This document shows positions 1,003 to 60,677 of a stretch of 64,000 nucleotides of DNA, piece after piece. The stretch comes from Hormiphora californensis. Lineage: Eukaryota > Animalia > Ctenophora. Below the pieces are notes generated by a model, which was not told where the DNA came from, did not search any database, and worked only from the letters and a program-made list of their open reading frames with translations. Within the stretch, counting starts at the first letter, position 1; the number at the start of each line of letters is the position of its first letter. The stretch is taken from contig CM035355.1 in the NCBI GenBank assembly GCA_020137815.1, positions 8,370,001 through 8,434,000 on the forward strand. Direction: 5' to 3'. A program made the translations under genes and the position numbers.

Positions 1003-1252
1003 TTCGTAAACTATAATGGAAGGGAGAGGGGTTATTAGGAGAGAAGTAAACTAGAATGGAAGGGAGAGTAGGGGTTAGAGACTATAAAGGAGAGGGTTAG
1101 TGGCAGAGAAGGGGCTAGAAACTAATAGGAATTTAGGGATCACTCTTCAAAAGAAGGCATATAATTTTCGCCTCAGTTTCGGCATAAATGATGTGAAAAT
1201 AAAACATGTAATAATTATTAACAACACAAATTAATGTATTCTCTCCGAATGT

Positions 1253-2743
1253 TTAAAATGTTTCATTCTCTAATGTGTAGCAAGACAAATGGTAGGCCTT
1301 GTCCATGCTAGCGAAATCCCTTCTAACAGGGGGCATTAGTTTATCTTTCTCTGTCTCGTCACTCAGAATCTTCCCACACCCCGCACAAGGCTGAGAATAT
1401 AAGTTCTGGTAATAACTCAGCCACACAAAGAATTTACTAGCGTTCTGGAAATGGAGGGATGCTGCATTAGCCACCTCGGTTAAACGGTTAAAAACTGTAA
1501 ACTTGGAGGGCGGCCAGAGGTTATCATTGAGCGTCTCCTCGTTGAAGGAATGCACTATAATCCTCTCTACTACCCCGCCCTGCATTACTGCACAGGCCTT
1601 CAGAACCTTCCCAACTATTGCCTTTAGCATGGTGCCACTATGACTGGGCATTATCTGGAGTTTCAGGGAGTACTGGCTGCTGCCCAGACCAAACTTGGTA
1701 TTCATCTGGGCCACAAAACTCTCAATAACTGTCCTCTCTACATAGATATGAGGAGAGTTCAACTCAGGATCTAGCTCCGCTAGGTTCCTTATCTTGATAT
1801 TCCGTGTGACTTGGTTGAATAGTATCTGACTGTTATCTGTGATACGTGCTGCTCTTGTGTACCCCTCCTGGATGTCCTCGTGAGCCTTGTGGGATTGAAG
1901 GTCATCTGCAGCCAGGGAGAGCTGGTGGAATCCAATACTGAGAGAGGGAGGGGGAGGGTTACTACTACAGGGGGAGGTCATCGCACTGACCCTTTCTTAC
2001 GCACAGAGGGAGGAGGGCGAGGCCAGGCCGGTCAGGGGATTATGGAAAAACCCTTACCTCTTTACTATTCCTTCTTGAGGGGTCGTGTTGTGTTTCTCCA
2101 CCAGGGTTGTCAGGGGATACCGCCCCAGGGTAGACATTTTACCCTCCAAACTGTTGATGGCACGATGGATCCCATTTTGTAGATTGATATGGAGATTACC
2201 AATCATCTTCTTACCTGAAAGTAATATGGGGGAGGGGTTGGATTCTGATTTCGGAGAGGATTCACCCTAGGGGACCAAATGAGGACCGTATGGGGTGAAT
2301 CCTGTTTCAAGACGTGTTCTAACCTCTGTCCTTGTCGTTGATAGCACGGTGATCCTTTATCCCATCGTTTATTGTCTTTCCCCCAGTCAACTCGTCAAAT
2401 ACTAACTATACAACCGGGGTGAAGAGTATTAGATGCTTTGCAAAATGTTATCCCGGGGTAAAGAAAGTTGTTTTGTTAACTGTTATCAAAATGTTGACTG
2501 CTCCCTAAATCCAAATCCACGGTTATCATGCCTCAACTCCCCACTACTCAATATCTGTACCTGCACAGAAGCCCGGAGGTTCTCCACTAGTTTGATAGCA
2601 TCAGTTAGTTTCTCCACTGTGCACAACTCCCCCATCGCTGTAGAGTTGGGTGGTTGCTGTAGTTGAGGTGGCATCCCTGGGTGGAGCTGCTGCTGTCCTG
2701 GATGGTGGGCGTTAGGTGGGGGTCCACCTAGTGTAGAGGCCAT
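1253..2743 (-). CDS. MED27: Mediator complex subunit 27 (about 3 exons: ~2547-2743, ~2057-2215, ~1253-1950)
   Basis: C-terminus FFVWLSYYQNLYSQPCAGCGKIL...LMPPVRRDFASMDKAYHLSC matches the MED27 C-terminal Zn-binding region. N-terminal exon carries EKLTDAIKLVENLRASVQ. GT-AG boundaries visible; exon limits approximate. Confidence 0.85.
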
Positions 2744-59900: not shown

Positions 59901-60677
59901 CGATCAAGTATCGCCAGTTCCTACTTACCGGTAAGGGTCAAGTATCAAATATCACCAGTTCCTACTTACCGGTAAGGGTCAAGTATCAAGTATCACCAGT
60001 TCCTACTTACCGGTAAGGGTCAAGTATCAAGTATCAAGCCAGTTCCTACTTACCGGTAAGGGTCAAGTATCAAGTATCGCCAGTTCCTACTTACCGGTAA
60101 GGGTCAAGTATCAAGTATCACCAGTTCCTACTTACCGGTAAGGGTCAAGTATCAAGTATCACCAGTTCCTACTTACCGGTAAGGGTCAAGTATCAAGTAT
60201 CACCAGTTCCTACTTACCGGTAAGGGTCAAGTATCAAGTATCGCCAGTTCCTACTTACCGGTAAGGGTCAAGTATCAAGTATCACCAGTTCCTACTTACC
60301 GGTAAGGGTCAAGTATCAAGTATCGCCAGTTCCTACTTACCGGTAAGGGTCAAGTATCAAGTATCAAGCCAGTTCCTACTTACCGGTAAGGGTCAAGTAT
60401 CAAGTATCAAGCCAGTTCCTACTTACCGGTAAGGGTCAAGTATCAAGTATCGCCAGTTCCTACTTACCGGTAAGGGTCAAGTATCAAGTATCAAGTATCA
60501 AGTATCAAGCCAGTTCCTACTTACCGGTACAAGTCGTTTGATGTCCTTTACGCTGACAAAAGGTTTAGCTAGTTCCTCTTGGAGAGCTCTCTTTAGAGTC
60601 CAGGCTAGGTCAGAAGACTGGATCACTGAGAGGATCTCCTTGGCGACAACCTCGTCCCCTGATGTTGTTGTTGTCAT
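29983..60677 (-). CDS. TBC1D19: TBC1 domain family member 19 (multi-exon, ~31 kb)
   Basis: Exons: start 60677; DSGWDVKIRNVVY...KEPMTFIRTAQ (~59664-59804); ARWEKRILKSINTMC (~53030-53189); VYAPKDFME; VKLTAGNHEAYFVFED (~51900-52026); YPPNGIIPFHGFSMYLAPLCF (~49363-49544); LFYHLREMGSHPLKHAFNWIMHAFAG (~48221-48353); QLLLLWDRIIGYNTLEIL (~30210-30332); AEAVLHDINSLQVIP (last exon, probable homopolymer slip). Confidence 0.92.
30780..31994 (-). CDS. Carbohydrate sulfotransferase-like (Sulfotransfer_2/HNK-1ST family) paralog 1, nested in TBC1D19 intron
   Basis: Type II TM anchor and stem; RHPLSRL, PTFSEFV, HWRP, KLE and YEMDYSYFGY motifs. Confidence 0.88.
   Translation of the reverse strand: MSRCFSILPYSGWIFHRLLNILIFLSALFLWYLIVTNQEALHWYFVNRDRTACIGVSTGPVPPQPPQDAFQGVVEEMRVVIEPKEDAAVPVQRNKFQQLDSPIEFLQPEPDDVFERFKERNNVVKEVCRFEESPNFEQSNMYYFPAIGATWLPLFGASSELWKRFFIDRHYSHNAQNYNLARLSRFILQYKKSKPGRGKKSRKFDKEPDDSLRFTIIRHPLSRLIAHFKKPQLDRGELSALKDQWVRPSIILGRNDPSWTEERRTKFEDELDLWIDDKLVEQSPDNPLLSEPTFSEFVRFIVDADDKGDERAYNVHWRPISEWLDICQNNIDIIVKLENMKSEIPVLLEQLNLKKHQEYFLNHADDINVEEYMGQLSRRDQERINDYYEMDYSYFGYKNVFVDN
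32646..34001 (-). CDS. Carbohydrate sulfotransferase-like paralog 2, nested in TBC1D19 intron
   Basis: Same architecture and motifs as paralog 1, with a longer stem containing an internal repeat. Confidence 0.88.
   Translation of the reverse strand: MARYFVILPYSGWVFHRLLNIFILFSALFLCYLIITNHWYFVHRAALDEDNAQPMRDIFQGIVPSDRVKMNKFQPPAVRPIGFKMKSENTESPGYHGNPQHVPVQEGPVSPGYHGNRQPLQEGPVSPEDHDVDTNPPQDIIEATEQFQDVLTRFEMRNKVIKDLCELEGNPDFQTSSMYYFPNLRATWMPLFGATTALWKKFFIDQYNVKRRSAPDQYNLGQLSRFLLQRYRSSRRWSGKKTRRMRREPDDSLRFTIIRHPLSRLIAHFKKPQLDRGELTALKDQWVRPSIILGRNDPSWTDEQRAKFEGELDLWIDGKLTPEQSPDNPLLAAPTFPEFVWFIIDRSEDGDDRAYNVHWRPISEWLDICQNDIDIIVKLENSKSEIPVLLDEINLSDHEDYFLDSQDDINVEDYMGQLSREDQEDINGFYKMDYRFLGYQPIFVETDSELD
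34191..41613. repeat. 45-bp tandem satellite, ~165 near-identical copies
   Basis: Unit TAGTGCGTAGAGGACAGTCTTATATATTCTAGAGAAATAGGACCA. Minus strand reads ...CCTATTTCTCTAG|AATATATAAG (acceptor-like). Copy number estimated from length. Confidence 0.98.
42855..44117 (-). CDS. Carbohydrate sulfotransferase-like paralog 3, nested in TBC1D19 intron
   Basis: Same motifs; ATG at 44117 (MIRCFSILPYSGW) aligns with the other paralogs' starts. Confidence 0.88.
   Translation of the reverse strand: MIRCFSILPYSGWVFHRLLNILIFLSALFLWYLIITNQEALHWYFFREVKCDEAEVSNHDNHGNHDNDGNPIQEQLPPQQLEEVLQKPKKEPPAVRAKFQPPEGPIEMRILQPEPEDVSERFTERNNVIKDLCTWEDSPDFEQSNMYHFPYLKATWAPVFGAGSTLWKKFFIDQYTTKRLNKYGDQYNLGYLGKFLLQYKKAKKGEGLKTRRFTKEPDDALRFTIIRHPLSRLIAHFKKPQLDRGELSALKDQWVRPSIILGRNDPSWTDEQRTKFEGELDLWIDDKLVEQSPDNPLLSPPTFSEFVRFIVDADDKGDERAYNVHWRPISEWLDICQNNIDIIVKLENMKSEIPPLLEKLKLASHKAYFLDNADRAEDVSVEEFMGQLSRRDQERINDFYEMDYRFFGYQPIFVDNDPEQ
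44953..45040. repeat. (GA)n microsatellite
   Basis: Directly visible. Confidence 0.9.
45933..47551. mobile_element. Non-autonomous DNA transposon, ~240-bp TIRs, TAG...CTA termini, 9-bp TSD (AcademH- or MuDR-like)
   Basis: TAGAGTGTCGGATTTTGAAATAATC... and ...GATTATTTCAAAATCCGACACTCTA. CCACATCCC at 45924-45932 and 47552-47560. Internal ~48-bp palindrome at 47161-47208. Confidence 0.9.
48331..48760. repeat. Tandem repeat (~5 copies, ~80-105 bp) of a TBC1D19 3' splice site + exon start
   Basis: Each unit reads CCTTTAATCCAG|GTGTGTTGTCTCTGTGTCTCC on the minus strand. Confidence 0.88.
48949..49038. repeat. Dispersed mini-element, copy 2
   Basis: Core matches 11160-11220; flanked by 27-bp direct repeats at 48922-48948 and 49039-49065. 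Confidence 0.75.
49515..51455. repeat. G-rich tandem repeat (~8 units) of a TBC1D19 3' splice site + exon start, interrupted by an AT-rich insertion
   Basis: Minus-strand unit CCAG|TAGGGGAGCTGGAGCAGACGGCAGTGTATCCTCCTAAC plus C-rich intron sequence. Confidence 0.85.
49757..50667. mobile_element. Probable non-autonomous element with many (T)GTGGATAA subterminal motifs
   Basis: AT-rich insert inside the G-rich array; imperfect inverted ends (GAC...AACACTTTT / AAAAGTGTT...GTC); internal ~85-bp duplication. Confidence 0.5.
53317..59697. repeat. 54-56-bp tandem satellite, ~117 copies, of a TBC1D19 exon end + 5' splice site
   Basis: Minus-strand unit GAACCCATGACATTCATCCGGACAGCTCAG|GTACTG(N0-2)CCACTTTGAGATTACAGA; the exon part encodes EPMTFIRTAQ. 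Confidence 0.97.
59903..60528. repeat. 41-43-bp tandem repeat (~15 copies) of the TBC1D19 first-intron 5' splice site
   Basis: Minus-strand unit ACCG|GTAAGTAGGAACTGG...; continuous with true exon end CTTGTACCG|GTAAGT. Confidence 0.92.

What the first reader, a model, noticed from the sequence alone, without database searches (positions are those of the whole stretch)
1006..60528. Window-wide pattern: tandem repeats are amplified exon-intron junctions
Seen: at least ten duplications or arrays each contain a splice site plus adjacent exon sequence. These are the RNMT acceptor x2 (1006-1080), MED27 acceptor+ATG x2 (2700-2812), PEX12 donor x2 (4770-4855), sideroflexin donor x2 (27340-27413), membrane-gene acceptor x2 (27932-27994), the 45-bp acceptor-like unit x~165, TBC1D19 acceptors x5 and x~8, and TBC1D19 donors x~117 and x~15. 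The extra copies always fall on the intron side, leaving the CDS intact. Inference: either a splicing- or R-loop-linked duplication mechanism acts at junctions, or such duplications are uniquely tolerated. Either way this is a route of intron expansion that demands strict choice of the exon-proximal site among up to >100 identical decoys. I do not know of this being described at this density, but cannot check.
Basis: partly seen in the sequence, partly recalled or inferred. Interest (0 to 1): 0.8.

Follow-up and report, generated by a model that had tools for sequence, protein, structure and literature searches.

The report
Splice-junction "mirage" repeats in comb jelly
In what is likely a comb-jelly genome, eight short stretches spanning predicted exon edges have been copied head-to-tail 2 to 117 times, a repeat type already known from lancelets as "mirages"; the spare copies differ from the working exon almost only at silent positions, which likely means they were swapped in from other versions (alleles) of the same gene.

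Summary
Eight of the ten listed items span a modelled splice site. The 45-bp x165 array and the "membrane acceptor x2" do not. "Extra copies fall on the intron side" is a logical necessity, not evidence. Junction overlap is 1.6-3.5 times chance (P 0.0009-0.05; 0.13 if two unverified 5' acceptors are discounted), in one pre-selected window. Three small duplications are in short-read contigs, and three loci also occur as single-copy alleles, so they are real and polymorphic; the long arrays were not read-checked. The class is known: amphioxus "mirages" and human F7, CBS, LMNB2, PDGF and 6-16 minisatellites. This scan has noted it before on other DNA (90 notes, at least 28 genomes); no ctenophore case turned up in my paper searches or in its notes. 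What this window adds: decoy exon pieces differ from the working exon at 12 synonymous versus 1-3 non-synonymous sites although they cannot be coding, at about allele-level divergence, and unit ends show microhomology. Best reading: microhomology-seeded duplication, tolerated at junctions and fed by exchange between homologous alleles in a very heterozygous genome; no splicing-linked mutator is needed. No RNA evidence shows which site is used.

The parts
1006..1068 (-). RNMT 5' acceptor x2 (40-nt spacing, 5 bases past the AG); acceptor inferred, likely trans-splice
   Evidence: X1 contig 889-1195 has no differences across both copies; Pfam PF03291
2700..2809 (-). MED27 acceptor + ATG + 14 codons x2 (58 nt); the upstream copy is an 18-codon ORF that stops 1 nt before the real ATG
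   Evidence: X5 contig skips 2743->2817, a single-copy allele; Pfam Med27 in the last exon
4768..4855 (-). PEX12 exon-1 end + donor x2 (42 nt); 2 of 2 differences synonymous
   Evidence: decoy use gives an in-frame stop
27339..27417 (-). sideroflexin exon-1 end + donor x2 (43 nt); polymorphic
   Evidence: present in X1 (0 differences) and X5, each of which also holds a contig that lacks or breaks off before the second copy
48331..48763 (-). TBC1D19-like exon-10 acceptor x5 (77-102 nt units, about 22 exon bases)
49508..51456 (-). TBC1D19-like exon-9 acceptor x8 (working site 49542, 6 full decoys, 1 cut by the insertion at about 49757-50664)
   Evidence: six distinct synonymous variants
53317..59698 (-). 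TBC1D19-like exon-2 end + donor x117 (54-56 nt units, 11 unit types)
   Evidence: 10-nt exon/intron microhomology with one mismatch
59903..60529 (-). TBC1D19-like exon-1 donor x15 (41-57 nt units, only about 5 exon bases)
27932..27994 (-). 22-nt intronic duplicate next to, not across, an acceptor of a small membrane gene
   Evidence: in X1 with a single-copy second allele; a 40-nt X5 contig suggests a different duplication there that includes the AG
34191..41613 (.). 45-bp minisatellite x165 inside the long TBC intron; no splice junction shown
29983..60677 (-). TBC1D19-like gene, 12 exons, 532 aa (name recalled; Pfam gives RabGAP-TBC)
13719..13790 (-). near-junction 20-bp repeat about 30 nt before the last sideroflexin acceptor
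6932..6986 (+). near-junction 20-bp repeat about 35 nt before an acceptor of a J-domain-like gene

Best explanation
These are 'mirage' minisatellites: tandem copies of an exon edge plus its predicted splice signal, likely seeded by short matches between exon and neighbouring intron, tolerated because one intact exon and site remain, and likely fed by unequal exchange with other alleles of the working exon. Shown: the repeats, their position at modelled junctions, microhomology at several unit ends, presence/absence polymorphism, a modest excess at junctions and the synonymous bias. Inferred: in a genome whose alleles differ by about 6% with indel-rich introns, exons are where homologues pair best, so misaligned exchange or repair that starts in an exon and runs into the intron deposits or refreshes junction copies. 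Inferred, untested: splicing uses the exon-proximal site (first donor, last acceptor), and slips give premature stops.
For: Synonymous bias: 12 of 13 clean substitution variants (12 of 15 or 13 of 16 counting ambiguous ones) are silent, where 25-29% is expected; P 3e-6 to 5e-5, and 0.0004-0.005 even if the working exon also drifts silently. The decoys cannot be coding: 14 of 15 tested decoy uses in coding genes hit a stop and the other shifts the frame by 43 nt. 4 of 5 variants private to one decoy are silent (P 0.025). Working exon versus commonest decoy differs at 7-8 of 194 bases; two alleles would differ at about 12.6 (191 of 2930 in ten pieces). At sideroflexin one Phe codon is the same in both copies within a haplotype but differs between haplotypes (window TTT/TTT, X5 TTC/TTC), which needs exchange or repeat origin. 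Microhomology: 10 nt (54-mer), 7 nt branch-point-like (exon 9), about 4 nt at PEX12. Crossovers favour exons in a hypervariable fungus (PMC4209137, abstract). In the amphioxus BflGb6 alignment, read by eye, decoys of each haplotype carry silent states of the other haplotype's working exon.
Against: No direct evidence of exchange: no pedigree, no allele panel for the four TBC arrays. Decoys that simply keep an older allele while the working exon is replaced by nearby recombination give a similar bias (the reading of note e1-7880682); the private-variant test falls to P 0.12 under the lenient model. The X5 decoy has one non-synonymous change (27362). One amphioxus site is a CpG and could recur, and those decoys also carry many non-silent changes. 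Enrichment drops to P 0.052 within 150 nt of junctions and 0.13 with six sites only. The catalogue and masks were set after seeing the window, which was chosen for this pattern.
Confidence: 0.55

Rival explanations
1. Ordinary replication slippage makes small duplications everywhere; short introns make junction overlap common, selection removes wholly exonic ones, and decoys preserve older versions of the exon. No special role for homologues.
For: 16 of 24 duplications are off-junction; median intron 188 nt, 19 of 30 at most 216 nt; within 150 nt of junctions 8 observed against 5.0 expected (P 0.052); microhomology fits slippage equally.
Against: An excess remains in all nine nulls tried and is below P 0.05 in seven; 4 of 5 arrays with 5 or more copies are at junctions (P 0.008); dead copies should gain mostly non-silent changes, yet 12 of 13-15 are silent.
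Confidence: 0.3
2. A splicing- or R-loop-linked process causes duplications at splice sites.
For: Excess at and near junctions: 12 of 21 span or lie within 35 nt of a site, 6.05 expected (P 0.005); one microhomology is a branch-point-like motif.
Against: Units keep intron and exon in genomic order, so no spliced RNA template is involved; donors, cis acceptors and likely trans-splice acceptors are all hit; it does not predict silent-only differences.
Confidence: 0.08
3. The decoys are kept by selection as splicing regulators (unproductive splicing, or a uORF for MED27).
For: Decoy splice signals are intact; the MED27 decoy would give an 18-codon ORF ending 1 nt before the ATG; CBS and 6-16 use some pseudo-sites (PMC1557585 introduction).
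Against: Single-copy alleles segregate at MED27, sideroflexin and the membrane gene; the units are unrelated and young; amphioxus mirages do not disturb splicing.
Confidence: 0.04
4. Assembly artefact: two haplotypes written in tandem, or long-read stutter.
For: Decoys look allelic; the assembly has a low-quality stretch (18480-19900) and probable 1-nt errors in PEX12 and sideroflexin; the long arrays, PEX12 and MED27 copies were not seen in the listed contig pieces.
Against: Single short-read contigs cross both copies without differences at RNMT, sideroflexin and 27932; a second study's run holds the sideroflexin pair with its own variants; the 54-mer has interspersed recurring unit types.
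Confidence: 0.03

Closest known systems
Amphioxus 'mirage' minisatellites (Adh3, globins BflGb6/BflGb9, troponin C, PGBD5). PMC3087553: passages and supplement 4 read; PMC3902484: one passage; Canestro et al. 2002 not held, known only through these
   Same: Tandem copies spanning an exon-intron boundary, donors and acceptors both, units of tens to about 150 bp, copy number differing between haplotypes, origin called unclear.
   Different: Likely a ctenophore host; up to 117 copies against 3-6 in BflGb6; four arrays in one gene; likely trans-splice acceptors included; no RNA test here; near silent-only divergence of the decoys.
Human junction-spanning VNTRs: F7 intron 7, CBS intron 13, lamin B2, PDGF intron 4, interferon-inducible 6-16 (PMC1557585: abstract and introduction read)
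   Same: First unit spans the exon-intron boundary, reiterating the donor; F7 unit has only 4 exon bases like the 41-mer here; the most upstream donor is normally used.
   Different: Those are donors only, 5-26 copies, scattered single genes; here acceptors too, and 8 in 64 kb.
Crossovers confined to conserved exons in hypervariable Schizophyllum commune (PMC4209137, abstract only)
   Same: Exons as islands of similarity where divergent homologues can exchange.
   Different: A fungus; concerns equal crossovers, not duplications; not shown for this organism.

Membership tests
mirage minisatellite | Head-to-tail repeat whose unit spans an exon-intron boundary | tested here: met
   8 of 10 listed items; two of the 8 rest on inferred 5' acceptors
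mirage minisatellite | Extra units keep AG/GT splice signals | tested here: met
   117, 15, 8 and 5 motif matches
mirage minisatellite | Copy number differs between haplotypes | tested here: met
   single-copy alleles at MED27 and sideroflexin; not tested for the four TBC arrays
mirage minisatellite | mRNA is spliced normally at the authentic site | tested here: inconclusive
   no usable RNA run; only the intact reading frame argues for it
mirage minisatellite | Somatic length instability (Adh3) | not testable with these tools
   needs single-molecule typing
mirage minisatellite (45-bp array and 27932 pair) | Unit spans an exon-intron boundary | tested here: not met
F7-type donor VNTR | Most upstream donor chosen by oriented scanning | not testable with these tools
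   shown for F7 in PMC1557585; not tested in this organism
intron gain by tandem duplication (Rogers model) | Duplication of an exonic AG|GT site creates a new intron | tested here: not met
   all eight enlarge an existing intron or 5' region; decoy use breaks the frame

The most novel reading that the evidence does not exclude
Mirages are a general by-product of recombination between highly divergent homologues: exons act as pairing islands, exchange that runs over the exon edge leaves tandem junction copies, and each array becomes an archive of exon alleles. This would explain the unexplained origin of mirages, predict their density from heterozygosity, and make it a main route of intron growth in polymorphic marine animals down to ctenophores.
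Probability: 0.3. Interest if true: 0.7.

Novelty: new member of a known kind. Interest (0 to 1): 0.4.

Why it matters
The repeat type is known but its origin is called unclear in print (PMC3087553). A likely ctenophore case extends it to the earliest-branching animals. The silent-only divergence of non-coding decoys makes one origin model directly testable with haplotype panels. Arrays of 117 donors and 8 acceptors are natural tests of first-donor and last-acceptor choice, including at likely trans-splice acceptors. Practically, such arrays can mislead gene prediction and read mapping.

Tried and rejected
No whole genome is held, so no genome-wide enrichment test. No RNA holder was listed; the one guessed RNA run, X13, covered 4 of 30 bins of 1-9850 and showed no joints: uninformative. 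Metagenome scans: MED27 query 0 of 120 candidates; TBC exon 9 query 5 of 365, all distant; the three inspected showed no junction repeat. Homologue searches from single exons: one 84-aa hit, none for sideroflexin, none in PDB. The 45-bp array as coding: two minus-strand frames are stop-free over 2037 and 2476 codons, but there is no start codon at the 5' end, a 15-codon frame lacks stops about half the time, and units carry indels; rejected. The 45-bp array as an acceptor array: not supported. Canestro et al. 2002 could not be read. Literature searches for a ctenophore case or a genome-wide enrichment paper (listings only) showed none; the library lacks most subscription journals and bioRxiv supplements are closed.
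Full report
Setting. The window is animal DNA with tightly packed genes, mostly on the minus strand. Bases 20695-20735 match 39 of 41 letters (by eye) of the trans-spliced leader printed for the ctenophore Hormiphora (PMC8527503, passages read), and three single-exon genes sit nested in a long intron, as described there. 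The host is therefore likely a ctenophore. That paper reports about 3.2% heterozygosity, indel-rich non-coding DNA and 13% tandem repeats, with no mention of minisatellites or splice sites in its main text. Pfam identified RNMT, Med27, Pex12, sideroflexin and a RabGAP-TBC domain (6 + 1 + 2 + 1 hits and so on among 18 pieces); the name TBC1D19 is recalled.

Gene models. A 12-exon TBC model (60677-29983, 532 aa, all 11 introns GT-AG, no stops) aligns at 45% over 521 residues to the best of 35 full-length homologues. MED27 and a small membrane gene also give open models; PEX12 and sideroflexin each need one 1-nt frame change downstream, probably assembly errors. First-exon acceptors just before the ATG (RNMT, MED27) are inferred and are likely trans-splice sites. 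No RNA supports any site.

Observation. All ten repeats are there and eight span a modelled site. The pair at 27932 ends about 10 nt short of the AG and has no exon bases. The 45-bp array lies kilobases from any TBC exon, and its acceptor-like motif is matched by 14% of random non-coding 45-mers. That extra copies lie on the intron side follows from tandem geometry: a duplication across one junction always leaves one complete exon with its site.

Chance. My own finder gave 31 clusters (shuffles: 0, 1, 0). I merged two halves of one array and dropped six wholly coding ones, leaving 24: 8 spanning, 4 within 35 nt of a site, 12 elsewhere. Placing one unit of each at random among 72 modelled sites gives 8 observed against 2.26 (all non-array DNA, P 0.0009), 3.59 (no transposons, n 21, P 0.015), 2.95 (also without target-site-like pairs, n 19, P 0.004), 4.29 (within 300 nt of a site, n 14, P 0.028) and 4.96 (within 150 nt, n 12, P 0.052). 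Adding nine short TRF-only arrays gives P 0.035; units of 40 nt or more give 8 of 15 against 3.17 (P 0.005); arrays of five or more copies give 4 of 5 against 1.11 (P 0.008); discounting the two 5' acceptors gives 6 of 21 against 3.59 (P 0.13). So the excess is about two- to threefold, and part of it is short-intron geometry (median intron 188 nt). Masks, one approximate gene model and the window itself were chosen after the fact.

Reality and polymorphism. In run X1, possibly the source individual and so not independent, single contigs cross both copies with no differences at RNMT, sideroflexin and 27932. X1's second contig skips the sideroflexin decoy and appears single-copy at 27932. X5, another study, lacks the MED27 decoy (joint 2743 to 2817), holds the sideroflexin pair on one contig with its own variants and another contig that breaks off at 27378, and has a 40-nt contig suggesting a different duplication that includes the membrane-gene AG. 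The piece tables were cut (3941 and 14 rows not shown), so PEX12 and MED27 in X1 were not seen.

Anatomy. Unit ends coincide with short exon/intron matches: 10 nt with one mismatch for the 54-mer, 7 nt resembling a branch point for exon 9, about 4 nt for PEX12 (read by eye; no chance control). Using a decoy gives a stop in 14 of 15 cases tested in coding genes and a 43-nt frameshift in the other; the upstream RNMT acceptor would only lengthen the leader. The decoys therefore cannot be under coding selection.

Synonymous bias. Distinct substitutions in the exon-derived parts are silent in 12 cases: PEX12 2, sideroflexin 1, 54-mer 1, exon 9 six, exon 10 two. Non-silent: one private change in 1 of 116 54-mer decoys; one letter inside the microhomology that equals the intron's letter; one ambiguous change in copy 50800. 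I dropped the truncated copy 50668, two rearranged 54-mers, one exon-10 copy with a 1-nt insertion, unit-edge letters, the 41-mer and RNMT (about 5 exon bases) and one untranslated MED27 letter. Random changes would be 25-29% silent: P 3e-6 (12 of 13) to 5e-5 (12 of 15); if the working exon also drifts silently (44%), P 0.0004-0.005. Working exon and commonest decoy differ at 7-8 of 194 bases, near the 12.6 expected between alleles from ten hand-picked contig pieces (6.5%). At sideroflexin the same Phe codon is TTT in both window copies and TTC in both X5 copies, so copies follow their own haplotype. A loose end of X7, a related organism, shows the window decoy's silent Ala variant next to a donor, which is suggestive only. 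Against: the X5 decoy has one non-silent change. In the published amphioxus alignment (by eye) decoys of both haplotypes carry silent states of the other haplotype's working exon, but they also carry many non-silent changes.

Mechanism. Most likely (0.55): microhomology seeds a duplication; junction-spanning ones are harmless; misaligned exchange with the homologue's working exon adds or refreshes copies, and is concentrated at exon edges because exons are where divergent homologues can pair (shown for crossovers in Schizophyllum, abstract of PMC4209137; inferred here). Plain slippage plus geometry, with decoys keeping older alleles, is the main rival (0.3); it also needs allele turnover within tens of bases, so the two shade into each other. 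Splicing-linked mutation (0.08), regulation (0.04) and artefact (0.03) are weak. Site choice is probably first donor, as shown for F7, and exon-proximal acceptor; this is untested.

Known. The class is published as amphioxus mirages and five human junction VNTRs. I learned the term from this scan's earlier notes and then read the sources. The scan lists 90 related notes in at least 28 genomes, none containing the word ctenophore; one noted the silent bias and read it as preserved older exon versions. Paper searches listed no ctenophore case and no genome-wide test; the library is incomplete.

Verdict. Real, mostly correctly observed, overstated in title; a new member of a known kind with a testable clue to origin. 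Interest 0.4.

Noticed in passing
window 20695-26220: A full-length LINE-like element (open frames 20785-22167 and 22346-25759, + strand) begins with a spliced-leader-like sequence followed by GT and appears to sit antisense inside a sideroflexin coding exon; a GT..AAG splice around it would keep the frame.
   Followed up: partly
window 30783-32054, 32649-34091, 42858-44171 (- strand): Three paralogous single-exon genes of about 420-480 codons nested in the 17.9-kb TBC intron on the same strand; family not identified.
   Followed up: no
window 63407-63916 (+): ORF with a hydrophobic N-terminus and 14 copies of an 11-residue unit flanked by paired basic residues, ending in Gly; looks like a neuropeptide precursor (inference).
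   Followed up: no
window 1-4916 (-): PEX12, MED27 and RNMT lie head to tail, each with an acceptor just before the ATG: an operon-like, likely trans-spliced cluster, with a transposon at about 2866-3810.
   Followed up: partly
window 18480-19900: Homopolymer-rich stretch that looks like unpolished low-quality read sequence; probable 1-nt errors also near 4600 (PEX12) and 20310 (sideroflexin).
   Followed up: partly
window 11124-11269 and 48922-49065: Two copies of one short element, each flanked by a 27-44 nt direct repeat of local sequence; the insertion at 49757-50664 is likewise flanked by about 29 repeated bases.
   Followed up: no
window 53317-59698 and 59903-60529: Unit variants cluster at one intron position in each donor array (+7 in the 54-mer: four insertion types in 53 of 116 units), possibly captured intron alleles or a mutable site.
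   Followed up: partly
window 51452-51464: The far edge of the exon-9 acceptor array holds a further 13-nt piece identical to exon 9 just downstream of the repeated part.
   Followed up: no
window 52345-52372: 13-bp tandem pair directly abutting the TBC exon-6 acceptor; not in the statistics.
   Followed up: no
window 2866-2909: 44-nt high-copy element end with many loose ends in three DNA runs.
   Followed up: no
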